Of a stretch of 64,000 nt of DNA, positions 39,995-59,850 are shown piece by piece. The stretch is from a virus (lineage: Duplodnaviria > Caudoviricetes). The notes beneath the pieces were generated by a model that saw only the letters and a program-made list of their open reading frames with translations, made no database searches and was not told the DNA's origin. Positions within the stretch are counted from its first letter, which is position 1, and the number at the start of each line of letters is the position of its first letter. The DNA is taken from IMG/VR virus record IMGVR_UViG_3300014204_000111, positions 64,001 through 128,000 of that record; one strand, 5' to 3'. Both the position numbers and the translations under genes were made by a program.

Positions 39995-40033
39995 TGAAAA
40001 GCCTGTTTAGAATCCAGTAAAACGGGTATAATA

Positions 40034-40148: not shown

Positions 40149-40248
40149 CCGCCACTCGCGGGACATAAGAATGATAAATATGTCATTTCTTTATAAAGAG
40201 GAAACTTCTTTCCTCTAGTTTTAACGGAAGGATTTACAAAGTAAATCC

Positions 40249-41313: not shown

Positions 41314-42650
41314 ATATTATATGAAATTTACCATATGTATTGTATTTGAAATTGAAGAAACTAGTCTTGAAGAAGCTAAGATTAGTGCAGAAGAATACAA
41401 AGAAACATTAGAAGAAGAAAGCAATGGAACAGATTATATTACTCCTGGCTCTTTATCTACTTATGTGACTCAAAAAACTTGTGAGTGTGGAGGAGAAATT
41501 GATTATTATTCTTGGGGAAGAGGAGGAGATTATATCTCCGAAGCTATATGTAAGTCATGTCACAAAGATTTTAATAAGGAATAATATATGTCTAAAAAAG
41601 AGAAGTTAATATATCTTGTGGCTAGAATATATTATGCAGCTAAATGGACAATTACATACAATTCTCTTGACCCATTTAAAGAATTTATTTATACAAGTAT
41701 ATGGGCAATTGATGCTGACCCTAATGGGATTTAAAATATTCTTATTATTAACAGCATGGGAAATGTCTTGTTGTTTTGATTTTTGTAATAGAAAATTAAA
41801 AACAGTTTATTATAAATATAGAGATTTAAATAGACATTGCCCAGGAATGAATATTAAATTAGTGCGTAGGAAAATTTATGAACGTATGCATAACAATCAA
41901 TAATAATATTACTTATGATTATTTTGATAAAAACGATATATATCTGTGGCTTTCTGGAAGGTTTCTATTTACAAAACCAGAAGTGAGACAGAATATAGCA
42001 TATGAAATAATAAATTATGGAAGTTCTGAGTTTTATCATTATAATGACCTTTATCATCATAATGACCATATAATAATAAAAACTACAATGATTAATTGCG
42101 ATTTAGAGATATGAAATGATTAATACAAAAGCTTTGTTTAATATAAGATTTTATGGTTTTTTACATCGTATTATGTATAAATACTTAGTAGCTACTAGAA
42201 TGAGTTGGAATGAAGAAGAAAAAATTAATGATTTTTATAGGAGACATTATCCTATAAGTTGGGGATATGATAGCATAAGTATATCTTACAAGTCTTTCGG
42301 TAGCTTAATTATAGATACTTTAATTATTATATTAGGTCTTATTACATTAATATTTATTAATGTAGAATCATATGATACAAAATAAAGCGTTATAAACATT
42401 ATCAATTTGACCGCAATAATACGATAAGAGCGCAATAATAGAGAATGATATAGAACTATACATAGTGATATATCGTTTTTTATTTACTCTTTATTGAAGG
42501 CTAAGTCTTGCTTAGGAGTCTATTTTACCCTTATAGCTGAAAGCGTAACATTTTAGTTAAATGATAAAAAGAGTATTTTATATATATTTAACACAGCTAG
42601 TGTTTAGAAGCTAAGACTTCGGGTATAATAGACCATTAGGAGATGATTTT

Positions 42651-43382: not shown

Positions 43383-44591
43383 CCTTAGAAGTGTTTATAA
43401 TTCTTAGAAATGGGGATAATACAATTGAAGTGAAAGGAGAATTGTAATGTCTAAGCGTAGTGCTAAAATAAAGAGGAAAGTAGGCAGGGCTTTAGAACAT
43501 ATTGCTTATAAGTTAACAGCTTCAGGAGTAGGCAAACACAAGTCTGTGCGCGATTATAACAGAAAGAATAAGGATTGGAAGAATGAGCAATCATAAAGAG
43601 CAAAAGAGGGAACGTAAGTTCTGGATTGTTAAAATTAAGGAAAGGGATGGGAATATTCCACCTGAATACAAGATAGTTGAAACAAACAAAAGACCAAAGA
43701 ACGCTGTATTTCAAAGTAAAGACCAATATTATGAGTCTAAGAATACAGCAGAAGTCCAGATGAATTATATTTTAAATGAAATATTCAGTTCGTGTGATGG
43801 TACAAGGTTTGACTAATAGGAGAAATCAATGTTTCAAATTAAAGTAAAGTTTACTTGTCCTTTGTGTGGAAAAGAATCAGAAGATGATGACCCTGCAATT
43901 TATGGACAAGAAGAATCACAAAGTTGTGACGGTTTTATTGCTGTAACTTGCTCTCATTGCAAAGAGGATATCGAATTTTCTGACAGATATGGAGAGGGTT
44001 GGACAGGCGAAAAGATGCCGAATTATAATGCCTTTTAGGAGTAAGAAATGAAAGAACGTACCCGTTGTATTAAGTGTAGTGTCAAAATTGAATACAAATG
44101 TCCTCATTGTCATAAAGATATTAGTGAATCTGATGCCATCTATTCCTGTCAAGATGGTTTTGACAATGCTTTTCTTGGTCTTATTTGTCCTGAATGTAAA
44201 AAAGAATTTGAGGTTGAGAATGTTATGGATGGAGAATGGGTATTTCGTTGGTATGAATAGATATTTAACTAAAAGAGTGTTTCTTAGCTCTTTATCCTGG
44301 GTATAATCATGTATCAAACCAAGGGAGAAACAAAGATGAAGAGCAGAAAGAAAGCGCAGGTCTTTAGAGTAGTAAAATGGATTATGCATGAGTATCCATC
44401 GGGGAATACTATGGAAGATTACGTTAAGTTTAATGAATTGTTGCAAAAGGCTTGTGATTGGGTCAATCGTACAGGTTTGTTTCTTAAGCCTCAATCTGAA
44501 GAACCAGAAGTTTGGGGTTAATTTAACCTAAAGAGTGTTTGAAAGCCTCTTTACCGGGTATAATATAGCATCTTTGAAGGGAGAGTTTAAA

Positions 44592-44900
44592 ATGGAAAAG
44601 AAACAGAAGTTGAGCACTTTAACCCTTATTGGCATCATCGCATCTTTTGAGGATGGTCGGCGTCTGATTCAGGTTAATCGTGAGGCAAAACTTCAGGCAA
44701 TAAAAGCAATTCGTGATATTACTGGCCTGGGTCTTGTGGAAGCAAAACTTATTTCTGACTATCTCTTTCTTTGTACTAATGCTGACACTTTCACCGTGGG
44801 TGCGCAAGAAATGATTCAATTCTGCGAGTCTTACATTCTCTCGTTGACTAGCAAAGAGAACGAAATCCAGTCGTTGTTCGACAAATTCAACAAGTTTTAA
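44592..44900 (+). CDS. Protein with a ribosomal L7/L12 C-terminal-domain motif
   Basis: KLQAIKAIRDITGLGLVEAK. Confidence 0.7.
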   Translation: MEKKQKLSTLTLIGIIASFEDGRRLIQVNREAKLQAIKAIRDITGLGLVEAKLISDYLFLCTNADTFTVGAQEMIQFCESYILSLTSKENEIQSLFDKFNKF

Positions 44901-44977
44901 TCTAAGTTTCATTGAAAACCTGTTTGAAACAGGGACGGTCAGGGAATAATACATTATCAAAGTCAAGGAGTTTTAAG

Positions 44978-45304
44978 ATGGCAAAGTCAATTATGGTAAC
45001 TAAGGTTCTCGTTCGTGATTCTCGCACTGGCCGTTTCGTGGACAATGCTCCAGTAAAGCATCTAGCTATTACTGGAAACATTTCTTCTCGTCAGATGATG
45101 GGCTGGGCAAGTCATCCTAAGCAAGAGCGTGCTCTTCGTTTTGAGAATGACAATCGCCTTGAGGTTTATGTTCCTGAAGGATATTTCCTCACTTATAAGC
45201 GCGAAGGTCATCTGACTCAGCCTACTTTTGTGCCTCGTTTGAGGGATGCTCTAAGGGTTATTCTTCGTAAGTTTAACTCTTACGTGTCTATTTTTACGTC
45301 TTAG
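44978..45304 (+). CDS. Hypothetical early protein
   Basis: Own promoter, AGGAG RBS, downstream hairpin. Confidence 0.7.
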   Translation: MAKSIMVTKVLVRDSRTGRFVDNAPVKHLAITGNISSRQMMGWASHPKQERALRFENDNRLEVYVPEGYFLTYKREGHLTQPTFVPRLRDALRVILRKFNSYVSIFTS

Positions 45305-45828
45305 TTTATTAAAGACAAGCCAAGGTGTCTAATGTCCTTGGCATATATTATTAAGAGGTTTAAAAATGTTTAATCGTAAACAAGTTGATGCTGAAAAGTC
45401 AGAAGAACGGCGTAAGCCTAAGCAGGGTAAGAATAGTCCTCGACTTCCAGCCTATAATCGTGATTCTCGTAACGAGAAATATTTCTTTGTTAAAACTCAA
45501 GACGAAGAAATTTTGGATGATGATAACGAATTTTGTGATTTTTAATTTAAAGGATAAAGAGAAATGAAGATTTATGATTGTTCTACTGGCAATCTTATTG
45601 CCACAGGTGAAGATTTTAAAATCATTCATAATCATCCTTTAGACAAGGAAAGCGAGTATCAACTTCGCATTACTTCCGAAGGGATTGCCTGTGATAAAGT
45701 AGTTAATGGTCAGATTGACCAGGAATCAATTTTTTGGTGGGATGACCTCTTTCCTGAAGGAACATAATTTAGATTTAACCTAAAAGATGTTTAGATTACT
45801 CTTCACAGGGTATAATAAGATAGCAAAA

Positions 45829-45984
45829 GAGTCTGGATTGCAAACAGTACGGTTCAGATGTTTAAACCTTTTTTGGCTGACACTGGTAAGGATTGGTGTA
45901 TAAACTGCCTTCGTGGTGGGCGAACACGTTAAACTGAATCTGATTCCCGGTGATGACCAGCACCTTAAACTGGTTGTCTTTTTT
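45829..45984 (+). ncRNA. Unidentified promoter-driven structured RNA
   Basis: Lies between promoters at 45808 and 46027; no ORF; stems TCTGGATTG/CGGTTCAGA, CACTGG/CCGGTG, GACCAG/CTGGTT plus U tract. Confidence 0.6.
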
Positions 45985-46891
45985 AACCAAAATTAAATCA
46001 AGAGAATGTTTAGATTACTCTTAACAGGGTATAATAAGATAACCTAACAGGGATGAAGTAATGATTGCCAAGCATCATCTTAAAAAATTACAACAGATTG
46101 AAGTCAAGGCTCTTAATGCTTTCCCTAATATCGTTAAAGTTAGAGAAGAGATGAAGAGTCTTAAGAATATCCCTGGACATGAAAAGACGATTAAAAGAGT
46201 CTGGGATAAGTTTGTTCTTACAATACAGGAGTTATAACATGGATAGCACAATGTTCTACGGTACATTAGCGAACACCGAATTAACTAGCATTGCTTTGGT
46301 GAAGCAAGCTTTTAAAGCTGGTATGCCATTAGTAGTGGTATCTAATCGTCCTACTCCTGGTGGAGAAATTATTCTTCGTATTGTAACTTATATTACTAAA
46401 AGTAATGGGTCTTATACAAACCCTCATACATTTACAGAAGAGACTCTAAAAGGCATACTTCGTGTTCATACTAACGAAGCAGGAATTATTGATAAAATTT
46501 ATTAGGAGTAAAAAATGAAAGTTACAGTTTTAACGGCTGCTGAATGGACGGGTTGCGGAGAGAATAAGCGCGTCATTGGTGTTTATGCTGATACTCCCGA
46601 AGGTCAGAAGCTTTTTAATGAGGCTTATAAAGAGGAAGATGATGGGGAAGTCAGTCTCGAAGTAGAAGATTACGAAGTCCAAGGTTTTATCGAAAGTTAA
46701 CCTAAAGAGTGTTTAGAAGCTCTTCATCCTGGGAATAATACTGTATCTTAAAGGGAGCAGCAATGTCTAAAGATATAGAGATATTCGGAATTACTAGTGC
46801 TGTATTAGGTCTTATCTTTATGTCGTGGGTTATGATGGTTATCGCCCTCATTGCCTTAATTGCTACCCAAGTTATTTCTTTGGAGAAGGGC

Positions 46892-47444
46892 AATGCTTAA
46901 GGATTACATCTTTCAAAGTGCAATGCAAGTTATGGAAGAGTGTAAGGCCGATTGGTTTTCTGTTTCAAAGAATGCACGCATCGGATATTGTGATGGTGTA
47001 AAATTCTCCACAGGAGAAATAGTATGTACTAATAAAATTCATGCTCCTAAGCCTGTTACAGCTATATCGTTTGCTACTTTTACTCATGAAGCCTTTCATG
47101 CTCAAGATATAAAGAGGCGAGAAATGGAATTGCCTACTTATATTCTTGAATATGATGCATGTAAATATAGTGAAGTACAAGCGGATAGGTTTGGGATTGA
47201 TTTACCTGCTTCTGTGAAACTAGATAATCGTGCTTATGTCGCTAAAGAGATAGCGAAGTATATTACTTCTATTTTGGGTGGTTCGATGCAACTGAGCGAA
47301 TTTATGAAGGTCTGGGATAGTATTCCTAGTGAGATTCGTGGGTATGTTGCGGGATTGGTAAAATATAATCCTGTTACTCAAAGTGTTTCAGGTGGAATTA
47401 CTCCACAACAATGGATTACTGCTAAGAATAATAAAACGAAGTAG
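46892..47444 (+). CDS. HExxH-motif protein (putative metallopeptidase)
   Basis: FTHEAFH...LEYDA; start approximate. Confidence 0.55.
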
Positions 47445-48428
47445 GAGAAAGTATAATGTTGACAATGGTTGAAAAGCGTGAAAAGTTGGCGCAACATGCG
47501 GTTGATAGTTATGATGAAGAGACAATATTCCAAACAGCTATGGAAGGCTGTATTGGTCTTAACTATCAAAGTGATGAAGAGATTAACCAACAATATAAAG
47601 ATATTTTCGGTGACGAAGAGAATGACGACGAAGATGCCGAAGAGGATGATTTTACCGAAGATTAACCTCATAAGTGTTTAGAAGCTCTTCATCCTGGGAA
47701 TAATTAAGAGTAATTCAAGATAGGAGACTAAGATGGACGAAGAGTTAGCAAAGGAAGTGGCGCTGCTATTGGCAGACCTAGCAGACCTGAGAATCCAGGT
47801 AAATGGTCTTAAACAACATCCTGATAATCGCTTTTGTGTTGAAGGTGTTATCGAGAAGTTCGCCAAGGTAGAAGATTATGACCGTTGGCTTAATGTCATT
47901 GCCAGGGATGAAGTGCTATTTTGGGCCTATCTTGACGAGAGAGAGAAGAGGATTTAACCAGAGTTTCACTTCCCAGATGTTTAAAAGCTCTGAGATTGGG
48001 AATAATAGAGAGTAAGGGAAAGAAACATCGAGTGAAAAGAATTTCCTTCCCCACGAAAGCGCCGAACGCCGTAAATATAGTTTCATGCGGCGACGAACAT
48101 AGTAAGAGTCTATCAGGCGTTCTTAATCTTTAATAAGGATATAACAATGAAGGTTCAAGTCCAATGGATTATGAGTGGCGAAATTGAGGTTGAGTCAGCT
48201 GATGCAGCTCGTAAAATGAGCCTGTACGAATTGGAGCAGGCTGGAGTTATTTACTTGGAAGATTCATTGGTTGTAGATAATGAGTCGGTTGAAGATGACG
48301 ACTTACCAGTATAAGTGAAATTAAGGTTAAATGAAGAGTAAAGGTGATTAGATTCTCTTCATCCGGGGTATAATCTAATCGGCAGTGGGAAAGACTACAT
48401 AATATTATATTCTTCGAGGTGGTTAATT

Positions 48429-48821
48429 ATGGCAAAGTTTCGTTTGGCTGATGGTACGGTGGTTGATGGTGTGGCGATTAATGAGCAGAATCAGGAGCGG
48501 ATTCAGCATCGTTTGAGCTTGGGTCTTGGTAAGCAAGGTAAGCTTCCTCGTATTCCGGCGGATGCTGAAGCAGCAGAGGTTTGGTTGGACGCTGTGACCG
48601 CTGGCGAAGCGCTCTTGAAGTTTGGCGAGAAGGTCTTGGGTAAGACTAATATGGCGAATGTTTCTACGATGGTGGCTTCGCTTGAAAAGGGCTACGAGGT
48701 CTTTAACAAGATGGTCGCTGCCGGTCTTACTATCGCTGACCTTGTGCCGCCTGCTAAGGAAGTTTCCGAGACTTCTATTGCGGATGCTGCCGAAGTCATT
48801 ACCGATGGTTCCGCTGAGTAA
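48429..48821 (+). CDS. Unknown protein, paralogue of 14820-15182
   Basis: Shared N-terminus; own promoter and terminator. Confidence 0.8.
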   Translation: MAKFRLADGTVVDGVAINEQNQERIQHRLSLGLGKQGKLPRIPADAEAAEVWLDAVTAGEALLKFGEKVLGKTNMANVSTMVASLEKGYEVFNKMVAAGLTIADLVPPAKEVSETSIADAAEVITDGSAE

Positions 48822-48842
48822 TCAGGAACATTAATTGGATTA

Positions 48843-48866
48843 AGGCCAGGGAAACCTGGCCTTTTT
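48843..48866 (+). terminator. Rho-independent terminator
   Basis: AGGCCAGG-GAAA-CCTGGCCT followed by TTTT. Confidence 0.88.
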
Positions 48867-50482
48867 AATATATATTTAATCTCTTTTATGTTTAAGAATC
48901 TAGGTAAAGGGGAATAATATATTATCAATAAAGAGTGAGGATGAAATGCATAAGTTTAAGGTTGAAGATTTAGTTGTGATTCAAGAGAATCCTTTCCATC
49001 GGGCTTTGATTGGTACTTATGGTATGGTTGAGCAAGTGTTTGGTGGGAATGATAATACTACACCTGTTTATTCTATTGTTACGGAGCGTGGAATTTACAC
49101 TTTTACAGAGCAAGAATTGAAGGGAGAATAATTCAATGATGAACAAGTATGAATTATTCGGTTATTTATCATTCTTAGGTTTTCATCCTAAGTATGAAAA
49201 ACCAGTAAAACGTCATAGTATGACCTTCCAGATTATTAGCTTTACCATTGGCGATAGAGATGTTTACTTTGAAGGTGATAATTATTGGTCATTGAATGAA
49301 CATAAGACTAATCCTGACCGTTCTCTTTACTTTGGTGGTGGAAGTAAACAAAAAGAAATTCAAAAGTCTATTAAACTTGTTGAATCTGGATTTACAGGTG
49401 TTGAACCACGGGTTATCTGGAAGGATGACGTTGTTATTATGCATAATCCATTCTATGATAATATAAAAAGTAAGGAATTTCATGGTCGTGGTTATTATGA
49501 GTTAGAATTACCTATTGGTCATAAACTAGCAGACAGGATTCCAGAGGGTCTACCATATAATTAGAATTTAACCTAAAACTTGTTTCACATATAGAGAGCG
49601 GGGTATAATAAGATATTCAAGAGTTAGGAGAATTAAATGGCTGTTCAAAGTATCTGGAAAGTATTAGGTGATGTGATGATTGCTAATATGGAAGCAGAAA
49701 AGCAAGCAGAAATTAAGGCAAGCGAAGCATTTACAACTGAAGAGCTTTTTGAGGAAGCTTCTAAGTTGTTACGTGAATGGACTAAATGTACGTTTGCTAA
49801 CATCTTCTTGCGTTATTCTCCTCATACTTATATTGAAACTATTAAGCGTAAAAAAGTTGAGGTTCCTGGTGCTGCTTGGCATGTCTCAGGAAGTTATAAA
49901 ACTTATATCTGTGGAATGTCTCACGAAATTGAAATGGAAGGAGCTAGGCTTGGTTATACGCCTAATCACGCTCTTTGGGTGTTCTTGGAAGGTCTTAAAA
50001 AGAGGATTTCATCAGAAGCTAAGAAAGAAAGTGTTTAATTTCTTCTCCGCAGGGTATAATACTGTATCAAAGCAAGGGAGTCAGAAATGACCAAGTTTTC
50101 AATTACCATTAATGAAGAGAACGATGAAGAGATTATTAAATTGGTTAAGACTTTTCTTTCGACTGTCTGTAATAGTCTGCCGTTGGTTGAGGTTGAGAAT
50201 CAAGCTAAGACTGCTTGGGACATTACCAAAGAGCAGGTTAAGCACTTTATCTATATTAATCATCAGCTATATACCACGAGAAACATTGCAAACGCATTTA
50301 ATATGTCGATAACAGATGCTAAAGCAATGCTAAATGCTTTGTGTGATGAAGGTAAAATCCAGAAGAATATCTTTGGAGATATGGACAAACTTACTACCTG
50401 GAGTTCACCAAGTTTTAATCATTAATCTGTTATCTTTGCTCTTCACCGGGTATAATATAGTATCTTTGAAAGAGAGGAACAA

Positions 50483-50807
50483 AATGTTTAACCAATTCGA
50501 CCTGAACAAGTGGCATAAGAATCAAGTTGATACTGGTAAGTATAGTTCTGAGCATGGCGCAGAAGATTTAGTTTGTGCCGATGGTTTCTCAATGAGTGTC
50601 CAGGCTTCCGAAGGGCATTATTGCACGCCTAAGCGTAATTTTGCTCCGTGTTATTCTCATTTTGAAGTTGGTTATCCTAGCAAGTATCAAAGTGAGCTAA
50701 CACGTTATAAGCAGGGTCGTGGTAAGGCTACTGAGTCTGTTTATGCTTATGTTCCTGTTGAAGTGTTGGAGTCTCTTGTTTATAAGCATGGTGGAGTGAA
50801 GAAATGA
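50483..50807 (+). CDS. Conserved-looking hypothetical phage protein
   Basis: CADGFSMSVQASEGHYCTP...EVGYPS...VYAYVP. Confidence 0.65.
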
Positions 50808-53755
50808 TGATTGCTAATATTGAAGTAAAGTCGTTAGTAAATATTCATCCAGATGATTTCACTGGATGTGAACATCAATGGATAGAGAATCCATATGATT
50901 ATGATTCTTGCCAAACTCAAGTTGTTTGTTCTTTGTGTCACTGTCCAGGTGAATTAGACGAAAAGACGGGAGAATTGGTTTATCCTACAACTTAAGAGGT
51001 AAAGAGATGTCTAAGTGTGTAATCTGTGATAAAGAGTTAAAGAAATCTATTGGAGCATATGTCAATGTTGAGTGTGATTTAATTCACTTTCAAGATGACA
51101 ATGCTTGGCCTTGCTGTCCTGATTGTATTGCAAGATATGAAGATAAAGAGCATTGGACAATTGAACAAGCGAGAGAGTGCGAACAAGAAAGGGAGAATAG
51201 TTAATGATAAATAGAGATAGGCTCAAACATCATAAGAGAATCAAGCGCAATAAGATGTTTTTAAGATATCATTCTTGTCCAGAAGGTAGATATTGTCCTT
51301 GGTGTCAAGAAACGAGACAGTATCAGATAAAGAGAGAAAGAGAAAGACTCAAAGACCAGGAGAAAGAGTTAATCGAAGTTTAATGATTAATTGGTTTGTT
51401 GCTCTTCATCCTGGGTATAATACAGTGTTCTGAAAGGGAGTGAGAAATGGTTAATCTTGATAAAAACGAAGTGAACAATCTTATTCTTGCGGTAGGCGTA
51501 GAAATCTTTGCGCAGCAAGCATTGCAAAGTATCAAGAACATTCGTGCTGCCGGTCTTGATACTCCTGATGGTATTGGTATTAAAACTAGCAAAACCTTTT
51601 ACGATTGGTTAATGTTTAATTATCTTCCTTTGGGAGTGAGGTCTTTTATTATCACTGAGGAATCAGTTAAGGGTTTTATCAATGCTTTAACCCATGACCT
51701 TGTAGATATTAATTTTGCTGAAAACCTAAAGGCCAAGCAAAGTTTTTGGGCAAAATATGAAGTAGATGATTAGACTTCTTGTTTATCGGGTATAATAAGG
51801 CATCTCAGAAAGGGAGAACGAAATGTTAAAGGGCGAAGTACATTTTGATAAAGATGGCAATGTTATTGGTTGGGGTGTGTGGACTAATGGTGGAATTGAA
51901 GGTGGCGATTGTGTTTATGAAGAGAATGCTGTTGGTATGTTCTATTCTCAAGCATTAGCAAGAGCACAGGCTAAGGCACTCGAAATGGAAGGCCAGCCAC
52001 TTCCTATCTATTCTAATGATTCGCAGCGTGTGGATGCCCTTGTAGAGCTTCTTAAGACCTATCTTAGCGATGATGGGATGGCGGAAGGTGAGGGCGGTGG
52101 ATGTTATACGACGAAGGGACAGCTTGAAGTTGAAGAGAAGATGAACGCAATCCTAAAAGGGAGATAAAATGTTTAACAAGCCAAACAATTTTGTACATCC
52201 TAATGGTTTTGGGAAGGTTAACAAACCACCCAAAAGGAAAGGCCAAAAGACCTTTGGCTATCGTTTCTGGTCTTTTGTGTATTTTTGCTCTTCTGAAGTT
52301 TCTCGTCGTGCTTCTCGTAGAATGATAAAAATGATAAGAGGAGAATAGAATGGCTTGGCTTATCTTCCTAATTCCTATCTTGTGTGTTGTAGCATCCTTT
52401 ATATGGCCTACCAAGTGTCCTAAGTGTGGCTATCATGGATTAAATTTAGCTTGGCAAGATAAGAAATTGTTTGGTAAATATCGTAGATATTATAACTGTC
52501 CTTGTGGACATAAATGGAGTGTGGGAAGATGACAGGTCAAGAGGCGGGAGTATTAGAGAAGAAATTAAAAGCGTTATATCCTAATGCAGTTATTAGTGCA
52601 TATATAACTGATAGAATCCATTGTTCCGAAAAGATTATTCATAATTGGTCTATTTCAATTGAGTTTCCTTTCTCGACTGTTCAAGATGTTGATAATTTCT
52701 TAACTCTTTATCCTGTAAAGGTGTAAAATGTTAGTATGGTTAATTGACGCGGTACAAGAAAATGCTTGTGGCGATACAAAATCATTTATGGTACATGCTT
52801 CATCTACAAGAGAGAAAGCGGAAGCTTGGGTTAAAATGCAGCAAGATAAACATAAAGATTATATGCCAAAGTATGAATATATCATTAGTGGCTATACTCT
52901 TGATGTAGAGGATTTAATCCAAGTTTAACTAGAGACTTGTTTCTTTGCTCTTCACTATGGGTATAATTAAGAGTAAGTCAAGGGAGTAAGAAATGGAAAC
53001 GATTTTGTTAGTTAGTTATAAGCCAGATAAGACCAGGCGTATTAGTGCTACATTCTTTTATTGTAAGCAAAAGGATTGGGACGACGAACCTTTGCACCAA
53101 GTTACTGATAAGGATTATAAAGCAGTAATCCTTTGGGCGAAAGTTATTGAGGAACAGAAAGGAAAGGACGTTCATATAGATATTCTTCAACATCTGCTTG
53201 ATAGTATTAAGAATGACCAAAAGCATAGTTATGAGTCTGAAGATTGGTTTATCCAGTTTGTGCCTTGTATCTGTTCTTAAAGGATAAAGAGATGAAAGTA
53301 AGCGTATTGATTAAACACCTTCGTAAGTATACAGTAAAATATAAATTAGCCAAGCAATCTTATCTTTACGCAATGAAGAGAGATTGGAGTTTTAAAACTA
53401 AGTGGCGTTATTTTAAATGGGCTATTGAACCATTATTTCGATAGGAGCACGAAATGAAAGCTAGTACATTAATTACACAACTTTGTGAGTGTCTTATCAG
53501 TAATACTATAATTGGACAAGATAAAGAGACAATCATTCGTGCTAGAGCTGCTCTAATAAATGCAATCAAAGCGGCTAATTCTGATTGTGATGTTTGCACA
53601 GAAGATATAAACTTTGATAGTGTAGAATTTAAAGCAGCTATTCTTTTGGTGTTTGATGATTGCCCTAAAAATAATTACATTGATATTTTACCTAAGACTG
53701 ATTAGTTGCTCTTTATCTGGGGTATAATAAGGCATCTGAGAGGGAGAACAACAAA

Positions 53756-54250
53756 ATGGCTAAGATTACTTTCGATTATAAGTGTAACCGTTGTGAGCAG
53801 GATGTTCGTAACACGAATGTTCAAGTAGGTATTAATCAAAGTTGTGATTATGATTCGTCTATTTCGATTGATACAACCTGTCCTGTGTGTGGTCAAACAA
53901 TGACTTGGGACTATGATGGTTTTAGTGATTGGACAGCCTCTTACGAGCCTTACAAAGCTCCTGACGTGGATTATAGCAAGCCTGCCAGTGATATTAAGTG
54001 CGAAATCTGCGGCAAAGGTCAAAGCAATCACGACGAATTTAATAGTATCATTCGTGGTAACACTACAATGTTTCGTCGTGTTTGTTCTGAATGCAGGAAG
54101 GATTATATCTTTCGTGAACATCCTATCTGTGATATCTGTGGAAAGACTAACAATCGTGATATTAGTATATGGCAACGTCTGGTAGATAACAAGTTTCAAA
54201 CTATCTATACTTGTGAGGATTGCTTTAATAAGGCGTTTAATAAAACATAA
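53756..54250 (+). CDS. Multi-CxxC zinc-finger protein
   Basis: Six CxxC pairs; own promoter. Confidence 0.7.
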   Translation: MAKITFDYKCNRCEQDVRNTNVQVGINQSCDYDSSISIDTTCPVCGQTMTWDYDGFSDWTASYEPYKAPDVDYSKPASDIKCEICGKGQSNHDEFNSIIRGNTTMFRRVCSECRKDYIFREHPICDICGKTNNRDISIWQRLVDNKFQTIYTCEDCFNKAFNKT

Positions 54251-55394
54251 TGTATGGTAAGAATATTACAAAATGTAGGTTTCTTAAACATATATATGTA
54301 AAAATAGCTCAAAGGATATGGCCTTATCATCTTAGACAGTGGAAGTTTTTTCGTTTTAGAGGAGTAAGAAATAAAAATATCAAAGCTATTATGGAAGATA
54401 TATAGAATGATAAAGAGAGGTTCTTATCGTTATGGTATGGTTATACTTAGAGAAGAATGGAATCGGTGTAAACACAATGGACATATATAATCTTTGCTCT
54501 TTATCTTGGAAACAATGATGATGCAACTACTTACATGTATTAAGAGAAAGATAAGGATAATAACATCGTATTTTAACTCTTATGTAAATTGTAAATTATC
54601 TACAAGGTTAAGATATTTAGTAACTCAAGCTAAATATAGAAAACATGTTGGTAAAAGAGCAATGACAATGAGGAAATAATGATGAATTTACTTAAGTGCG
54701 TAAGAATAACAATAAGGAAAAGAACGCCACACTTTAACTCTTATATAAGAAATAACTTATCTTTAAGATTAAAAGATATGATATTTAACAAAAGGTTAAT
54801 GGAATGGGCGTACAAGGAAATTATAAGTGCTAAAGCTGAATCAGTAAAATTTCCTCCAAGACAGTTATGAGATTCTTTAACAGCTTAAAAATGGCTAAAA
54901 GGATATATCGTTTTTGTTTACGTATGGTTGAAATATCATCAAATCTTAATAAAATATCTATGTTCAAAGAATTATGTAAACGCTGGCATAATTGGAATGG
55001 ATTCTAACTCTTTTGCTCTTTATGTTTGAATGAGAATAGGAGAATACACAAGAGATGAATATAATAGATATATATGAAATATGTAAAGAGAAGTTTATAG
55101 GATGGTTAGATAAACAATGTTATAATTCGTATATTTCGTTATTCCCTTTTACGATGTGGGGGAAGTTACACAAACAGATAATGGTGTATTATGATACTAA
55201 TATGAAGGTAACAGGTTTATCTAATACGGAAATAGAAGAATTAGCGAAGGAATATACTTACGGTTATATTAACTTATTTTGGATTCCTTTATCTATAATG
55301 ATTGGGTTGATAGGTATTATTGTAGGATGTTTAGGCATTATTATAGGGTGTTTTATATAAACACCGCAATATAGGGTATATAACTAATTCTACA

Positions 55395-55468
55395 TCGTTT
55401 TCAAACCAATTATTATAGATAGTTTATCGTTTTCATAGATAGTTTATCGTTTTCAAACCAATTATTAT
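55395..55468. repeat. Overlapping direct repeats in AT-rich non-coding DNA
   Basis: ATCGTTTTCAAACCAATTATTAT twice and ATAGATAGTTTATCGTTTTCA twice. Confidence 0.8.
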
Positions 55469-56039
55469 GGGAAAAGCTAGGTCTTTTATATATTTAAAAA
55501 TCAATCTCAAACAATCTACATATCCCCACAACTTAACCAATATCTAACAAAGTGTTTTACAAGACTACAAAACCTCATAAAAGACCCACATTTAAAGATA
55601 AAGAGCTTAAATTCTAAGTAACCTGTTTGAAATCTTGTCCTTCGGGTATAATATAGCAGCGGGGAAGGGAGCGAGAGGAAAGCTGCTCTATGACCTCTCT
55701 TTCCTGATACCAATAGGAGTGCAATATATGTTGATGAAGTTGTCAAGTTGTTGTTGGGCAGAAGTCTTTGATGAAGATAAAGAGCCTGAATGTTCAAGTT
55801 GTGGCAAAAAGTGTCAAATTATTGAACATGATGTGCCTTTAGCTAAAGATGAAGATTCTTAATCAGGATTTAACCCAATTTTTATTGACATAAACACCAG
55901 CATATGATAATGAGACTGCCTCCCAGAAAGACACGCTTGCCCCAGGTGAGTTAAAAAGGTTTAATTAGTATTTAACCACACAACTGTTTTAAACTCTCTT
56001 CACCGGGTATAATTAAGCATCAGAACGAAGGAGCAAGAA

Positions 56040-56567
56040 ATGAGTAACACAGTGGTCTTGAAATGGGATAGTGATTATAACTCATCAATGGACATTAACA
56101 GCCACTTTCTCGACTTGTGGAATCGTGAAGAGAAGAAATTCGAGACTAAATGGTATGGCGATACCTACAACTTCGATTATAAGTGGATTGATGAAGCTGG
56201 TGGCTGGGCTTCTGAAGAGGATAAGGAAGAGGCTTTCCAGGCTGTCATTAAGCGTGACTTGGAAGGTTGGATGCGTGACCAGCGTATCAAAGATGAAGAG
56301 AAAGAAATGGGCGATGATTGCACTGTGGTTCGCGGAAAGAAAGTTCCGCAGGGAACCAAGGGACGCATCTTCTGGATGAAGGAAGTGCCTAAGTATCATT
56401 CCTATGGGCGTGACTTTGAATGGCGCGCAGGCATTAAAGACCAGTATGGTGATGTTCACTGGCTGCCCCTGTGCTACTTGATGAAGGACACAGTGGAATA
56501 CACTCCGCAAGAGGATGTCATTGCAGAGCATAAGGCTTACTACATGAGGAAGTGGAGCCACAAGTAA
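56040..56567 (+). CDS. Hypothetical early protein (GC-richer), SH3-like C-terminus
   Basis: VVRGKKVPQGTKGRIFW; promoter at 56005, terminator at 56586. Confidence 0.75.
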   Translation: MSNTVVLKWDSDYNSSMDINSHFLDLWNREEKKFETKWYGDTYNFDYKWIDEAGGWASEEDKEEAFQAVIKRDLEGWMRDQRIKDEEKEMGDDCTVVRGKKVPQGTKGRIFWMKEVPKYHSYGRDFEWRAGIKDQYGDVHWLPLCYLMKDTVEYTPQEDVIAEHKAYYMRKWSHK

Positions 56568-56585
56568 GATACGATGGAGAATATG

Positions 56586-56612
56586 GCCTGGGGAAACCCA
56601 GGCTCTTTTTTT
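56586..56612 (+). terminator. Rho-independent terminator
   Basis: GCCTGGG-GAAA-CCCAGGC plus T tract; near-identical hairpin at 59466. Confidence 0.88.
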
Positions 56613-56734
56613 TAACTAAAATTTGGCTTGACACCAAGGGCTTCATATGATAATGAGCTGAGCATAGGACATAAGAGTGTTTAACCAGATTTTCACTCAG
56701 AAAGTGTTTGAAAGCCTCTTCACCGGGTATAATA

Positions 56735-56816
56735 AGATACCCTAGAGACTTGGGTGCGAATCCCAACTGCCCGTCGCAGGGTACATCGTCTAAGAGTAGG
56801 ATACTAGGCTGTATTT
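56735..56816 (+). ncRNA. Circularly permuted tRNA-like RNA
   Basis: CCTAG/CTAGG, AGAC, TTGGG-TGCGAAT-CCCAA, TGCCC/GGGTA closed acceptor, TC-GTCT..GGAT D arm. Confidence 0.85.
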
Positions 56817-56832
56817 TTGTTAGGAGTTTACA

Positions 56833-57129
56833 ATGAACATTCAAGACTTGATTAATGCCCCTAGGATTGTCGTTCGTAACAGCAGAGGCCAGCTTGTTGG
56901 TGGGATGCCATCTTACAAGGTTCACGAACCTAACGCGAAGATTAAGAGCGTTCGTCAGTTCTTTGGCTATCTGATGCATTCATCCTGGGGAAAGAACATT
57001 CAGGATGCCACTATGGAAGCCTACAATGCCCAAGGTGAGCTTTTGGCACGTGCTTCTGTGTCCACCACAGGGACGCATCCTAACGGTCATCCTAAGCGTT
57101 CTGTGAAGGTCTCATTCACGAAAGTTTAA
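56833..57129 (+). CDS. Hypothetical early protein
   Basis: AGGAG RBS; follows the permuted tRNA-like RNA. Confidence 0.75.
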   Translation: MNIQDLINAPRIVVRNSRGQLVGGMPSYKVHEPNAKIKSVRQFFGYLMHSSWGKNIQDATMEAYNAQGELLARASVSTTGTHPNGHPKRSVKVSFTKV

Positions 57130-57228
57130 CCAAGAAACCTGTTAGAACCTTGAAAGTTGGGGTATAATTAAGAGTGAGGGAAAGAAAGCTTCCCAAGTTT
57201 GAAAGGCTGCTTTAGCGCCAAAGATTGA

Positions 57229-57301
57229 AAGCGGAAGGTGCGGGTGTAAGGCCCGTGTGTCAGTAACTCTGGCAGTAGACTAAATAATAGGTCAGCCGCT
57301 T
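57229..57301 (+). ncRNA. Circularly permuted tRNA-like RNA
   Basis: AAGCGG/CCGCTT, AAGGT, GCGGG-TGTAAGG-CCCGT, TGTCAG/CTGGCA, TA-GACT..GGTC. Confidence 0.8.
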
Positions 57302-57315
57302 GTTTGAAAGCAAAG

Positions 57316-57401
57316 ACAATCAATAGTTTAGGGGTTAGAACGCCAGACAAGCATGGTCGCACCTGTAGATGGTAGGGCAGCTTCGGACGCTGCTTGATTG
57401 T
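57316..57401 (+). ncRNA. tRNA mimic in normal order, without an anticodon loop
   Basis: ACAATCAA/TTGATTGT, TA-GTTT-AGGGGTTA-GAAC, irregular CCA..TGG arm, GCAGC-TTCGGAC-GCTGC. Confidence 0.75.
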
Positions 57402-57497
57402 TGGATGCTAAAGAAGGATGGTTGGCACTTACCAAAAGTCCGCCGCATTGAAAGGCTGCTAGAAGCGCCGTTTATGAGACTGTCTAATTAACAGTTA

Positions 57498-57582
57498 GCA
57501 AGGAAACGAGAGTGCAATCCTCTCTGCTGATTTAGCAAGTTGCAAATTGCCTTAAGCATCGTCTAGTAGAAGGACGCCTTGT
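57498..57582 (+). ncRNA. Circularly permuted tRNA-like RNA
   Basis: CAAGG/CCTTG, AAAC, GAGAG-TGCAATC-CTCTC, TGCT..AGCA, TC-GTCT-AGTAGAA-GGAC. Confidence 0.85.
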
Positions 57583-58363
57583 GTTTGAAATCTGGTGGAT
57601 TGGGTATAATAAGAGTGAGGCAAGGTTCAGGTGAGTAGCTTGGTAAAACATTGGGAATCAACCATAGATAACCTATCTTAAGTTCTTTTAAAATAGTTGG
57701 TATGTTTTGTTCTCATGATGAAGAGCAAAGAGATACGGATATACAGGAGAAGTTCGACTCTTTTCCTCTTGTTCTTCATCTTTTAACTTGATAACTTATG
57801 AGTCTTATAGCCCTTATAATTGGTGAGTCCTGTTATGTATTAGGGAATTAGAAGTAAGACTCTTTTAACTTGATAATTTCATATAAGAGTCTCGCTAGAC
57901 TTAGACCCGGTGGGTTTAAGGGAAATAATTAGAGATTCTTCAGATTACGGGAAGAGAGGATTGGACTTGTATGGAGCAGCTTAACAGTACCCTAATTACA
58001 GGTTCCCTCTCTTTTCTCTGGTTAAATTGTTTGCAAACCCGTACTAACTGGGATAAGTTAGGATGATAACAACATTACAGTTAAATCTTAAAGTCTCATT
58101 GTTAAAGAGCAAGGAGAAATGATATGCGAACCTTCACCTAATTGGTTCTGAAAGACAAAGATTTTAATACATATAAATATAAATTGAATTGTTCGAGTTA
58201 CCTATGTGAAATTCAGGTGGCCTCTTTCTTAGAACTTGTTGCAGTGGTCTTATCCTAATCTGCTGTTCTAAGGGAGAGGTTTTTGCTATTATTTAACCTA
58301 AAACATGTTTGTTTGCTCTTCATCCGGGTATAATAAGGCATCTAAGAAACAGGGAGCTTGAAA

Positions 58364-58816
58364 ATGACATTCGTGGGAAGCAAGTATAACGAAACTAAGA
58401 ATCTTTCAACCACCGAGATTGCCAAGCTCATTCGTGCTGACATCAAGGCTGCTAAGGCTGATGGTTCAATCCCCAAGTTTTGCAAAGTTTCAGTGAATAC
58501 TGAATACTTCGCCAATGGTTCAAGCATTGACGTTCGTTTGAAGACCTGGGAAGGTGAAATGGTTAACATTGAGTTAGCACGTGAAATCTATCCCAATCGT
58601 CCATGCAACATGAAAGATATCCTTGTGATGAAGCTGGCAAAGACTCTTAGCACTCTCCAGGCTATCCACGACAGCTACAACCAGGACAGCAGCGAATCAA
58701 TGGTGGATTACTTCTGTGTTAACTACTATGGTTATGCTGATTTGGATTCGGAACTGAGCGACAAGATTCATGAGACATTGAAAGCTAACAACATCAAAGG
58801 ATATTATGACCGTTAG
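58364..58816 (+). CDS. Polyvalent-protein-associated (LPD29-like) domain protein, tentative
   Basis: EIAKLIRADIK...SV...Y..GSSIDV...YN.D.S..MVDYF. Confidence 0.6.
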   Translation: MTFVGSKYNETKNLSTTEIAKLIRADIKAAKADGSIPKFCKVSVNTEYFANGSSIDVRLKTWEGEMVNIELAREIYPNRPCNMKDILVMKLAKTLSTLQAIHDSYNQDSSESMVDYFCVNYYGYADLDSELSDKIHETLKANNIKGYYDR

Positions 58817-59002
58817 TGTTTGAAACCTGAGCTAACGGGTATAATAAAGCATCAAAGGAGAGAGATGGCTAAATTCTGTTGTGAGTGTGGAGAAAAGGTT
58901 AATGATTATGAGTGGGATGAAGTATTAGGAGCTTATTTCGGTTATTGCTCCGAGTGTGACGAAGACCATCTTGTACATTGAAATATCTCAGTAAGTCTAC
59001 AT

Positions 59003-59109
59003 CCTTGCGTAGTTGAAAGAGAATAACGGTCTATAATCTCTGACGGGTAATAGATGCATTAAAACCGTGTATATTATAGAACATTGTGGGTGCAAGTCCT
59101 ACCGTAAGG
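59003..59109 (+). ncRNA. tRNA mimic with an elongated anticodon arm and no CCA
   Basis: CCTTGCG/CGTAAGG, TA-GTT..AAC, TCTATAAT/ATTATAGA, GTGGG-TGCAAGT-CCTAC; enclosed by CTCAG/CTGAG. Confidence 0.78.
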
Positions 59110-59850
59110 TCTTAATTTCTAACTGAGAAGTGTTTAAAACTTCGTTACTAGGGTATAATACAATCGAGAGAGAAACTCTCTTTGCTCTTAATCTTGGAGA
59201 AAAAGATGTACGCCACTAAGAACTATAAGACTAAGAAAGAGTTTAAAGCTGCTGTTGCTGAGAAAGATGTCGAAGTCTATCAGCCTAACCAGATGTTTGA
59301 AGTCAAGGCTGGCCCAAAGGTTATCTGTGGCCCTCACGCTCCTGCAATGCATACGTGGTACGCTAATGCTAGGGTTATCGAGAGAGATGGCAGTTTCTAT
59401 GTTGAGAAGGGTAGCAAGGTTGTTTAGGAAGTGACCCACTTGGGTATAATAAGATGAGTGAACCAGCCTGGGAGCAACCCAGGCACTTTTGCATTGAAAT
59501 CATCTTTAAATAAAGAGATAATTCTTCATTATCATATGATTGGCGCTTTGTATATAGATAAGTTGAGATTTTAATTAGATTTAATTATATTCATTAATTC
59601 AATTTTTAAATATTTAACCTATATAAAGGAACCTTCTGGCTGGTAGAGAGTTAAATTTAGAGTATTATATGATATATTATATATGATAAAAGTTTATAGG
59701 GAAATTGGTTCCATAGAAAAAAGACCTAGTGCTCTAGTTCACAAAATTCAAACTATAAAAATTTCTTTTAAAAATAAATCTTCCAAAAAGAAAGTTCACA
59801 AAATTCAAATATAAAAAAGGGACTCCTAAAGAAAAAGGTGGTACAGAAAA

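What the first reader, a model, noticed from the sequence alone, without database searches (positions are those of the whole stretch)
57170..58290. Polycistronic array of RNA modules separated by short repeated linkers
Seen: ~1.1 kb with two promoters (57160, 57602) and no credible + strand ORF of 60 aa or more. In the first unit TTGAAAG precedes four modules (57199, 57225, 57304, 57448). Two are copies of a GGCTGCT-loop-AGCGCC hairpin, the other two are tRNA mimics, and a third mimic closes the unit. In the second unit four long hairpins (57717-57780, 57800-57862, 57885-57940, 57949-58016) follow one another, the first two each followed by the exact 16-mer TCTTTTAACTTGATAA (57779, 57861). Inference: a beads-on-a-string transcript processed at the linkers into several decoy RNAs, placed in the most promoter-dense early region.
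Basis: partly seen in the sequence, partly recalled or inferred. Interest (0 to 1): 0.8.

Follow-up and report, generated by a model that had tools for sequence, protein, structure and literature searches.

The report
Phage cluster of tRNA-like RNAs
A 1.1-kb gene-free stretch of a 221-kb uncultured phage carries two promoter-driven units that most likely make non-coding RNAs: three tRNA-derived modules that cannot decode, two of them circularly permuted like bacterial Y RNAs, followed by five long hairpins. What they do is untested.

Summary
Window 57170-58290 has two consensus phage promoters and no ribosome-site-led ORF longer than 31 aa.

Unit 1 (about 57176-57600) contains:
- two four-way junctions in the order T arm, closed 'acceptor' hairpin, D arm, open outer stem (57229-57301 and 57498-57582);
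- one normal-order tRNA frame without a usable anticodon arm or CCA (57317-57400);
- two copies of a small bulged hairpin.

Unit 2 (about 57617-58286) is five long irregular hairpins. The last looks like an intrinsic terminator.

The locus is colinear with a diverged second locus at 39864-41010, sharing a leader, a T-loop hairpin and a 24/26-identical hairpin core on unrelated outer stems. At least three further permuted modules, each directly behind its own promoter, lie elsewhere in the genome. The same scan's first readers had already noted this battery on this genome.

The 'linkers' are the phage's own promoter words: TTGAAAG is its -35 word, and the 16-mer is a U-run plus the TTTAAC upstream element. 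They look like cassette-junction relics, not dedicated cleavage sites.

The permuted topology equals YrlA, but YrlA membership fails. No relatives and no RNA data exist, so processing and decoy function remain inference.

The parts
57127..57168 (+). Promoter P1: TTTAAC upstream element, -35-like TGTTAGAAC (57140-57148), GGGTATAAT (57160-57168)
   Evidence: Fits the consensus of the 43 + strand promoters.
57170..57194 (+). Leader AAGAGTGAGGG plus a 5-bp hairpin (57178-57194)
   Evidence: 24 of 27 nt identical to the leader behind promoter 39864, E 4e-5. The same leader word follows P2.
57199..57219 (+). TTGAAAG word followed by small bulged hairpin A1 (57205-57219)
   Evidence: 13-mer repeated exactly at 57448. 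The hairpin pattern occurs only twice in the genome. Its fold alone is not significant, z -0.4.
57229..57301 (+). Permuted tRNA-like module 1: 6-bp outer stem, 5 nt, T arm, closed 6-bp 'acceptor' hairpin, U-A, D arm, outer stem
   Evidence: The minimum-energy fold gives this junction, z -2.9 to -3.2. Descriptor match; 1 of 1000 flank shuffles does as well.
57300..57310 (+). Perfect copy of the promoter -35 word TGTTTGAAAGC, with no -10 box behind it
   Evidence: Identical to the -35 region of promoters 44556 and 56725.
57317..57400 (+). Normal-order tRNA frame. Perfect 7-bp acceptor, U8 A9, D arm with A14, GG and A21, G26, long variable region, T arm abutting the acceptor 3' strand. The anticodon arm is broken (2 of 5 pairs, no U33) and there is no CCA.
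   Evidence: The frame descriptor finds 18 sites on the + strand against about 2 in shuffles, and recovers the true tRNAs. Sequence read. Not found by ARAGORN or Rfam.
57416..57441 (+). Hairpin (4 + 4 bp) between the tRNA frame and the next TTGAAAG
   Evidence: Present in the fold. Not significant by itself.
57448..57469 (+). TTGAAAG word followed by small bulged hairpin A2 (57454-57469)
   Evidence: Second and only other copy of the A hairpin. It aligns with a promoter -35 box.
57478..57496 (+). 6-bp hairpin with a 7-nt loop; in sequence, a decayed copy of the -10 box plus leader
   Evidence: 82% identical to 57162-57178 (repeat D5). Colinear with the promoter-plus-leader alignment.
57498..57582 (+). 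Permuted tRNA-like module 2: 6-bp outer stem, 4 nt, T arm with loop TGCAATC, long closed 'acceptor' arm, 5-bp D-like arm, outer stem
   Evidence: The minimum-energy fold gives this junction. Descriptor match; 9 of 1000 shuffles do as well.
57583..57610 (+). Promoter P2: TGTTTGAAA word and GGGTATAAT (57602-57610). Its -35 abuts module 2.
   Evidence: 82% over 45 nt to promoter 39864 plus its leader.
57717..57780 (+). Hairpin h1: 12-bp outer stem, 17-nt one-sided internal loop, apical 7-8-bp hairpin with a canonical T loop TTCGACT (57745-57767)
   Evidence: z -3.0. The apical part is 16 of 17 identical to 40054-40070.
57779..57797 (+). Repeated linker, copy 1: last stem bases, U-run and TTTAAC
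   Evidence: Exact 16-mer and 18 of 19 nt with copy 2. TTTAAC is a positioned promoter-upstream element.
57800..57862 (+). Hairpin h2: 9-bp outer stem plus an inner hairpin
   Evidence: z -2.8. Its 3' arm can alternatively pair with the 5' arm of h3 (inverted repeats I19 and I20).
57861..57879 (+). Repeated linker, copy 2
57885..57940 (+). Hairpin h3: 9-bp outer stem plus a 9-bp inner hairpin
   Evidence: z -3.2.
57949..58016 (+). Hairpin h4: 11-bp outer stem, inner stem closing a TGG...CCTAAT loop, then a U-rich tail
   Evidence: z -2.6 to -3.3. One of only three such stem-closed motifs in the genome.
58020..58215 (+). A+T-rich spacer without significant structure. Contains AAGGAG followed by a 5-codon mini-ORF (58124-58141).
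   Evidence: z about 0 to +1. ORF scan. Contains GATTTTAATACATA, which is colinear with 40922.
58219..58286 (+). Hairpin h5 plus U-run, a probable intrinsic terminator of unit 2. 17-bp outer stem, apical core GCAGTGG..CCTAATCTGC.
   Evidence: z -4.4 to -4.6. The core is 24 of 26 identical to 40974-40999, which sits on an unrelated outer stem.
58291..58334 (+). Next promoter (TTTAACC, TGTTTG, GGGTATAAT at 58326) for the 150-aa gene. Marks the right boundary of the locus.

Best explanation
Shown:
- The stretch is two adjacent ORF-free units, each behind a consensus phage promoter.
- Unit 1 strings together tRNA-derived modules that cannot decode. Two are four-way junctions with a permuted strand order: outer stem in place of the anticodon stem, T arm, 'acceptor' closed by a loop, D arm. 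One is a normal-order tRNA frame whose anticodon arm is broken and which has no CCA.
- Unit 2 is five long irregular hairpins and ends in a hairpin plus U-run.
- The locus is a diverged paralogue of 39864-41010.
- The permuted module recurs behind its own promoter elsewhere in the genome: 39087 and 56741 by the descriptor, 36933 and 39900 by hand parsing. Those at 36933 and 56741 are 5' leaders of protein genes.

Inferred:
- These are functional structured RNAs. They arose by duplication of promoter-led tRNA-like cassettes whose internal promoters decayed, which left the -35 word and the TTTAAC word as 'linkers'.
- The polycistron is cut up like a tRNA operon by host RNase E, P and Z.
- The resulting particles present a tRNA elbow and acceptor-like arm but no anticodon. 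They would bind tRNA-recognising proteins without being consumed. Candidates are host tRNA-cleaving defence nucleases, tRNA-modifying or tRNA-repair enzymes, or a Ro-like partner.
- That would fit the at least 24 tRNA genes and two Rnl2-type RNA ligases that share this part of the genome.

My odds: about 0.85 that the stretch is non-coding and transcribed, about 0.7 that the modules are selected structured RNAs, about 0.35 that their role is decoy or titration.
For: - Promoters and absence of genes.
- Permuted junctions: descriptor hits at 39095, 56750, 57240 and 57508. Flank shuffles reach the observed pairing in 1, 9, 38 and 122 of 1000 trials. Unconstrained folds reproduce the junctions of 57229 and 57498.
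- All helices differ in sequence between copies, while G53-C61 of the T stem is kept in all four (read).
- The D arms share U8-A9-G10 and the AAGUAG-type loops of the phage's own tRNAs. Several real tRNAs of the phage also use TGCAA-type T loops.
- Normal-order frame.
- Locus-level colinearity with 39864-41010, E 4e-5, 0.009, 0.47 and 3e-6 in the same order. The conserved hairpin core sits on different outer stems.
- G+C is 45-49% in unit 1 against 31.7% for the genome.
- Rnl2-type ligases.
- The T, acceptor stem-loop, D topology is that of YrlA RNAs, which host tRNA enzymes recognise (PMC4201824).
Against: - There is no expression data.
- There is no comparative data. The phage has no relative in any collection searched.
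- Rfam's tRNA, tmRNA and YrlA models and ARAGORN do not score any module.
- Thermodynamic signal is modest. In an unbiased 90-nt scan only 4 windows reach z below -2.4. The tRNA frame (z -0.7), module 2 (z -1.2) and the small hairpins are not significant by energy.
- Module 1 lacks the D-loop GG and the T-loop C56, so a canonical elbow is not assured.
- The flanking protein genes are equally G+C-rich, so composition does not discriminate.
- The linkers being promoter words also fits decay without function.
- The decoy role has no direct support.
Confidence: 0.5

Rival explanations
1. Genomic debris. The stretch is a decaying tandem tRNA-gene cluster plus remnants of promoter and terminator cassette junctions. 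It may be transcribed but has no function of its own.
For: - The linkers are promoter words, and one segment aligns with a degenerate promoter plus leader.
- The tRNA frame at 57317 has a broken anticodon arm and no CCA.
- Dimeric tRNAs are known to imitate the T...D order (PMC4201824).
- There is no conservation data.
Against: - The same permuted topology, with a loop-closed acceptor and an intact outer stem, recurs at several sites that share almost no sequence. Most of these keep their own intact promoter.
- Helices in 57229-57301 are perfect.
- Motifs shared with locus 39864-41010 are kept while the rest has diverged.
- Phage genomes purge junk quickly (general knowledge).
Confidence: 0.2
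2. Cis-acting expression elements. The tRNA-like junctions are 5' stabilisers or processing handles for transcripts. The unit 2 hairpins are a series of leaky terminators or attenuators that insulate and tune early transcription into the downstream 150-aa gene.
For: - Modules at 36933 and 56741 sit between a promoter and the ribosome site of protein genes.
- h1, h2, h4 and h5 are each followed by a U-run.
- The 3' arm of h2 can pair alternatively with the 5' arm of h3.
Against: - Units 1 and 2 lead into no gene. The 150-aa gene has its own consensus promoter after h5.
- The phage's clear terminators are short G+C-rich hairpins of a different kind.
Confidence: 0.15
3. Y-RNA-like partners. The permuted modules are functional analogues of YrlA and bind a Ro60/Rsr protein of the unknown host, or another ring or scaffold protein.
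For: The T, closed acceptor, D order with RNA ends leaving through the anticodon-stem position is identical to YrlA. YrlA-type RNAs occur in phages (PMC4201824).
Against: - No TROVE/Rsr and no RtcB gene in the phage.
- No GNCGAA motif upstream of the modules (read).
- The Rfam YrlA model scores at most 13 bits, and that match lies elsewhere in the genome.
Confidence: 0.08
4. CRISPR-repeat mimics (RNA anti-CRISPR or crRNA-like RNA). Hairpin plus a tail ending in AUUGAAAG imitates a Cas6-processed repeat and its 8-nt handle.
For: Three hairpins (57178, 57205, 57416) are each followed 4-6 nt later by (A/U)UUGAAAG. From general knowledge, AUUGAAAG is a common crRNA 5' handle. Racr RNAs exist in phages (PMC10651486).
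Against: - The hairpins share no sequence, and spacing is irregular (26, 79 and 144 nt).
- The word equals the phage's -35 box.
- The 17-mer spanning stem and handle has only 45 single hits, and no array, among 185,579 species genomes.
Confidence: 0.04
5. The region encodes micro-proteins.
For: A 31-aa ORF with GAGG (57971) and a 5-codon ORF behind a perfect AAGGAG (58124) exist.
Against: - Both are tiny, and the first lies within the h4 stem.
- The phage's genes have a strong ribosome site 15-30 nt after the promoter, which P1 and P2 lack.
- No similarity to any ORF of the genome.
Confidence: 0.03

Closest known systems
YrlA-type bacterial and phage Y RNAs (Rfam RF02553; Chen et al. 2014, PMC4201824)
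   Same: A tRNA-like domain with strand order (variable), T arm, acceptor-like stem-loop, D arm, and RNA ends leaving where the anticodon stem would be. tRNA-derived, non-decoding, and found in phages.
   Different: No Ro60/Rsr gene nearby or anywhere in the phage. No GNCGAA Ro-binding motif. The Rfam model does not match. Many copies per genome, each behind its own promoter or strung into a polycistron. T loops are of the TGCAA/TGTAA type.
Circularly permuted tRNA genes (red alga Cyanidioschyzon merolae, some archaea; general knowledge and PMC4090602)
   Same: The 3' half (T arm, acceptor 3' strand) is encoded before the 5' half (acceptor 5' strand, D arm).
   Different: Those genes mature into real tRNAs through a circular intermediate. 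Here the acceptor helices are only 4-6 bp closed by short loops. For 57229-57301, joining the ends gives a 6- or 8-nt loop without a proper U33 context. No splicing endonuclease is known in bacteria.
Polycistronic phage tRNA clusters with extra stable RNAs (T4 tRNA region with stable RNAs C and D; general knowledge)
   Same: Several tRNA-shaped units sit on one transcript in the early region, next to genuine tRNA genes and RNA-repair enzymes. They are expected to be cut out by host RNases.
   Different: These units lack an anticodon and CCA, two are permuted, and they are followed by a hairpin array.
Promoter-early stem-loop (PeSL) cassettes of T4-type phages (Arbiol et al. 2010; general knowledge)
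   Same: Repeated intergenic words (terminator hairpin, U-run, upstream element, -35, -10) frame small cassettes in a hyperplastic early region. This explains the repeated 'linkers'.
   Different: Here the cassettes carry RNA modules instead of small ORFs, and several junctions have lost their -10 box.
Large ornate phage-associated RNAs near tRNAs (GOLLD, ROOL; general knowledge)
   Same: Long ORF-free, structured RNA loci in phages, often beside tRNA genes.
   Different: No Rfam match at E up to 1 over the whole window. No evidence that unit 2 folds as one body.

Membership tests
YrlA / bacterial Y RNA | Strand order T arm, acceptor-like stem-loop, D arm | tested here: met
   Descriptor and free folding at 57229-57301 and 57498-57582. 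Definition taken from PMC4201824.
YrlA / bacterial Y RNA | GNCGAAN0-1G motif near the 5' end (Ro60 contact) | tested here: not met
   No such word in 57170-57600 (sequence). Definition.
YrlA / bacterial Y RNA | Encoded within about 4 kb of, and on the same strand as, a Ro60/Rsr (TROVE) gene | tested here: not met
   PF05731 has no match in the 220,861-bp genome at E up to 1, while the positive controls were found.
YrlA / bacterial Y RNA | Match to the family covariance model (RF02553, gathering score 69 bits) | tested here: not met
   Best match in the genome is 13 bits, elsewhere. None in 57150-58330 at E up to 10.
Functional tRNA | Cloverleaf with 7-bp acceptor, D arm and T arm in canonical spacing | tested here: met
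   Met only for 57317-57400.
Functional tRNA | 5-bp anticodon stem and 7-nt loop with U33 and a purine at position 37 | tested here: not met
   In 57317-57400, 2 of 5 stem pairs form and position 33 is A. The permuted modules have no anticodon loop at all.
Functional tRNA | Detected by ARAGORN or the Rfam tRNA model; encoded CCA, as in most tRNAs of this phage | tested here: not met
   The 3' end reads TTGG, whereas most real tRNAs of the phage end in CCA.
Permuted tRNA gene that matures to a tRNA | Joined ends rebuild a canonical anticodon loop, and a 7-bp acceptor can be opened | tested here: not met
   For 57229-57301 the joined ends give a 6- or 8-nt loop and the acceptor is 6 bp closed by 5 nt (sequence, fold). 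Rotated sequences of the neighbouring element 56741 are not called by ARAGORN.
CRISPR repeat mimic (Racr / crRNA-like) | Near-identity to the repeat of a host CRISPR array | tested here: inconclusive
   The 17-mer has 45 single hits and no array in GTDB species genomes. The host is unknown and only exact matches were searched.
Type III toxin-antitoxin antitoxin (ToxI-like) repeats | Near-identical tandem repeats of about 34-37 nt | tested here: not met
   Only a 16-19-nt linker recurs, at 82-nt spacing, and the interiors are unrelated.
Intrinsic terminator | Stable hairpin directly followed by a U-run | tested here: met
   h5, 58219-58281, is followed by five U. h1, h2 and h4 have weaker U-runs. 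Termination itself was not tested.

The most novel reading that the evidence does not exclude
A tRNA-rich jumbo phage maintains a multi-copy family of circularly permuted, anticodon-less tRNA mimics together with companion hairpin RNAs. They are organised in two paralogous two-promoter loci and act without any Ro protein. Possible roles are uncleavable sponges for tRNA-targeting host immunity, or scaffolds for the phage's own RNA-repair enzymes. This would be an RNA-based counter-defence class not yet described.
Probability: 0.3. Interest if true: 0.8.

Novelty: new variant of a known kind. Interest (0 to 1): 0.55.

Why it matters
Phages are known to carry spare tRNAs and RNA-repair enzymes against defences that cut tRNA. 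tRNA-shaped RNAs that cannot be cut in the anticodon because they have none would be a third, RNA-only tactic.

The YrlA-like topology without any Ro protein would also show that this permuted tRNA shape has uses beyond Ro biology.

The finding is a concrete, testable set of about 70-85-nt RNAs. It also shows how promoter-led RNA cassettes duplicate and fuse in a phage early region.

Tried and rejected
Searches for relatives, all negative:
- Megablast and blastn of the region against 50,697 phage records: no match.
- Flanking proteins against IMG/VR: none. A structural protein against IMG/VR: none.
- The 98-aa upstream protein is an orphan among 5.8 billion proteins.
- The 150-aa downstream protein has only homologues of 44% identity or less, on short contigs and in Myrna-like mycobacteriophages.
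- The best relative found through the Rnl2 ligase (53% identity, 5.3-kb contig) uses different promoters and does not cover this locus.
- The 16-mer in IMG/VR gave 99 hits. None of the loci shares anything else with the region, so they are chance matches.
- The conserved hairpin core found nothing in IMG/VR or in metagenomes.
- The promoter consensus in metagenomes gave 119 single hits, none with a second promoter or gene synteny.

Expression:
- No RNA holder is listed.
- The two DNA holders, landfill and groundwater, carry the identical sequence, so there are no variants to use.

Detection by existing models:
- Rfam over the region and the window gave nothing for these modules.
- ARAGORN at lowered thresholds gave only implausible calls with 50-470-nt 'introns'.
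- Rotating the neighbouring permuted element gave no tRNA call.

Other:
- MAFFT could not align the permuted modules in register, so no covariance model was built. Pair comparisons were made by hand from the descriptor output.
- Pseudogene remnants: tblastn of all 1,576 open frames of the genome against the region gave only noise.
- Neighbouring proteins gave no informative Pfam or PHROG family.
- A replication-origin reading was considered because of the A+T-rich stretch and inverted repeats. It was dropped because there is no strand or skew switch here and all features fit the + strand transcription pattern.
Full report
**Source and setting**

The window is bases 64001-128000 of a 220,861-bp IMG/VR phage genome with direct terminal repeats. 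The genome is 31.7% G+C. An identical copy occurs in a landfill run and in a groundwater run from a second study. No RNA run is on record and no sequence variants were seen.

The window holds 19 ARAGORN tRNAs. It also holds a group I intron and several tRNAs the programs miss.

The 9-mer GGGTATAAT occurs 46 times in the genome, 43 on the + strand, almost all within this window. Aligned, the sites give a consensus of a TGTTTGAAA-like word, about 13 nt, then GGGTATAAT. In 13 of 43 sites a TTTAAC word sits at a fixed distance upstream, against about 2 expected. Behind these sites lie tRNAs, ORFs with strong ribosome sites, or ORF-free sequence. They are promoters by every positional criterion, though none has been mapped.

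**The observation**

- Promoters are at 57160 and 57602.
- No + strand ORF reaches 60 aa. With a ribosome-site requirement the longest is 31 aa, and it lies inside a hairpin stem.
- No frame resembles any other ORF of the genome.
- TTGAAAG is at 57199, 57225, 57304 and 57448, plus 57150.
- The small bulged hairpin occurs twice, and nowhere else in the genome.
- The four hairpins of unit 2 fold as described, z -2.8 to -3.3. A fifth at 58219-58281 has z about -4.5.
- The 16-mer is exact at 57779 and 57861.

Two cautions apply. A 7-mer seen four times in 270 nt arises about once per shuffled window. An unbiased 90-nt sliding fold gives only four clearly low-energy windows in the region.

**Unit 1, about 57176-57600**

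Segments 57229-57301 and 57498-57582 fold without constraints into four-way junctions.

Reading 5' to 3', each has an outer stem, 4-5 nt, a 5-bp stem with a 7-nt T-type loop, a closed hairpin, 1-3 nt, a D-like arm, and the outer stem again. I wrote this as a descriptor and ran it on every T-arm-like hairpin of the genome. Four G+C-rich sites matched: 39095, 56750, 57240 and 57508. The other hits were A+T-only stems, presumably chance matches, and two tandem-tRNA artefacts. With the T arm held and the flanks shuffled, the observed number of pairs was reached in 1, 9, 38 and 122 of 1000 trials. The two copies inside this finding are therefore the best formed.

The D arms begin U-A-G, like positions 8-10 of tRNA. 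They carry AAGUAG-type or A-rich loops like those of the phage's own tRNAs. Several real tRNAs of the phage also use TGCAA-type T loops. All four helices differ in sequence between copies, while the G53-C61 pair is kept.

Segment 57317-57400 has the normal tRNA order. It has a perfect 7-bp acceptor, U8 A9, a D arm with A14, GG and A21, G26, a 35-nt middle, and a T arm that abuts the acceptor 3' strand. A frame descriptor with these rules finds 18 sites on the + strand against about 2 in shuffles, and it recovers the true tRNAs. The anticodon stem pairs at only 2 of 5 positions, position 33 is A, and the 3' end reads TTGG.

None of the three modules is seen by ARAGORN or by Rfam's tRNA, tmRNA or YrlA models.

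**Unit 2, about 57617-58286**

Five long irregular hairpins follow a 100-nt unstructured start.
- h1 carries at its tip a 7-8-bp hairpin with a canonical T loop. It is 16 of 17 identical to 40054-40070.
- h4 and h5 share a stem-closed TGG...CCTAAT loop that occurs only three times in the genome.
- The h5 core is 24 of 26 identical to 40974-40999, where it sits on an unrelated 10-bp outer stem.
- h5 is followed by five U and then by the next promoter, so it is the likely terminator.
- h1, h2 and h4 have shorter U-runs.
- The 3' arm of h2 can also pair with the 5' arm of h3. I could not evaluate this further.

**Paralogous locus**

Four blocks are shared, in the same order, between 57160-58290 and 39864-41010:
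- promoter plus leader (E 4e-5);
- the T-loop hairpin (E 0.009);
- an A+T-rich word (E 0.47);
- the hairpin core (E 3e-6).

The second locus also begins with a promoter, a leader hairpin and a permuted tRNA-like module, has a second promoter, and runs about 1.4 kb without an ORF. The design is therefore duplicated, and only selected motifs have survived divergence. Short of cross-species comparison, this is the best available sign of selection.

**What the linkers are**

TTGAAAG is the phage's -35 word. At 57300 the full TGTTTGAAAGC of promoters 44556 and 56725 is present without a -10 box.

The stretch from the second small hairpin to the last module aligns colinearly with a promoter and leader. 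The hairpin lies on the -35 box, and a degenerate -10 box plus leader follows (repeat D5).

The 16-mer is the last stem bases, four U, and TTTAAC, the positioned upstream element.

Elsewhere each permuted module has its own promoter. The simplest history is tandem duplication of promoter-led cassettes followed by loss of the internal -10 boxes. This explains the repeats without invoking dedicated cleavage signals, and it does not exclude cleavage there.

**Comparison with known systems**

The T, acceptor stem-loop, D order with ends leaving at the anticodon-stem position is exactly the tRNA-like domain of YrlA Y RNAs, which also occur in phages (PMC4201824). Membership fails on three defining points:
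- no TROVE/Rsr gene in the phage;
- no GNCGAA motif;
- no match to RF02553.

RtcB is also absent.

Maturation into real tRNAs, as for permuted algal genes, is unlikely here. The acceptors are 4-6 bp closed by short loops, and the joined ends of 57229-57301 give a 6- or 8-nt loop.

A CRISPR-repeat-mimic reading is suggested by the arrangement of hairpin, 4-6 nt, then (A/U)UUGAAAG. It found no support: only 45 single hits and no array in 185,579 species genomes.

The phage does carry two Rnl2-type RNA ligases in the same region. Such ligases are commonly tied to repair of tRNA cleaved by host defences (PMC7824862).

**Verdict**

This is a modular, almost certainly non-coding, promoter-driven array rich in tRNA mimics. 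Its 'linkers' are promoter relics, and processing and decoy action are untested.

I rate it a new variant of a known kind: tRNA-derived non-coding RNAs with YrlA topology but without Ro. Confidence in the overall reading is about 0.5, and about 0.35 for the decoy mechanism. The same scan's first readers had already noted the battery of permuted modules on this genome. I re-derived four of them independently.

Noticed in passing
window 56739-56813: A permuted tRNA-like junction lies between promoter 56725 and the ribosome site of the 98-aa gene. Its outer-stem flanks read CU-GUA at the 3' side and AC at the 5' side, right at the expected transcript start. Joined, they would form a Tyr-type anticodon loop. 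The acceptor is only 5 bp closed by 6 nt, and rotated sequences are not called by ARAGORN.
   Followed up: partly
window 36931-37030: Another T-arm-first tRNA-like element directly behind promoter 36919. It forms the 5' leader of a seven-gene operon that starts at 37052.
   Followed up: partly
window 39864-41320: About 1.4 kb without ORFs, carrying two promoters. It is colinear in four motifs with the locus studied here, and its 40200-40960 part is unexplained G+C-rich sequence.
   Followed up: partly
window 57651-57950: The densest cluster of GANTC sites in the whole genome: 7 in 300 nt against about 0.9 expected, while the genome-wide count is as expected from composition. It is partly a by-product of the shared GAGTC/GACTC words in the arms of h1-h3.
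   Followed up: partly
window 18361-18435 and 19745-19831: Two apparently genuine tRNAs that ARAGORN misses. One is a Gly(UCC) tRNA with an odd TTAGAGC T loop, directly behind promoter 18345. The other is a class II Tyr(GUA) tRNA. Both end in CCA.
   Followed up: partly
window 15650-15935: A group I intron (Rfam 69.8 bits, 15675-15862) sits inside what looks like a tRNA. The acceptor and D arm lie before it and the T arm and acceptor after it, as in the tRNA-Leu(UAA) intron of cyanobacteria.
   Followed up: no
window 27920-27994 and 59003-59109: Two more normal-order tRNA frames with non-canonical middles and no CCA. The second scores 26.6 bits against the Rfam tRNA model, with a 30-nt insertion in the anticodon loop.
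   Followed up: no
window 34407-34523: Two adjacent T-arm hairpins behind promoter 34391, with weak tmRNA-model hits (16 and 12 bits).
   Followed up: no
window 55500-59500: A G+C-rich island of 38-50% in a 27-32% genome. It covers both the RNA locus and its small flanking protein genes. The whole promoter-dense stretch 44000-59500 is raised to 36-44%.
   Followed up: partly
window 57242-57250, and T arms in general: The promoter box GGGTATAAT resembles the 5' strand plus loop of the phage's TGCAA-type T arms. GGGTGTAAG in module 1 matches it at 7 of 9 positions, and it sits 11 nt after a -35-like word.
   Followed up: no
L110:250-440 (metagenome contig, relative with 53% identical Rnl2 ligase): In the only relative found, the ligase operon is also headed by a tRNA-shaped RNA. 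It sits directly behind a canonical TTGACA/TATACT promoter and has a long insert in the anticodon region.
   Followed up: no
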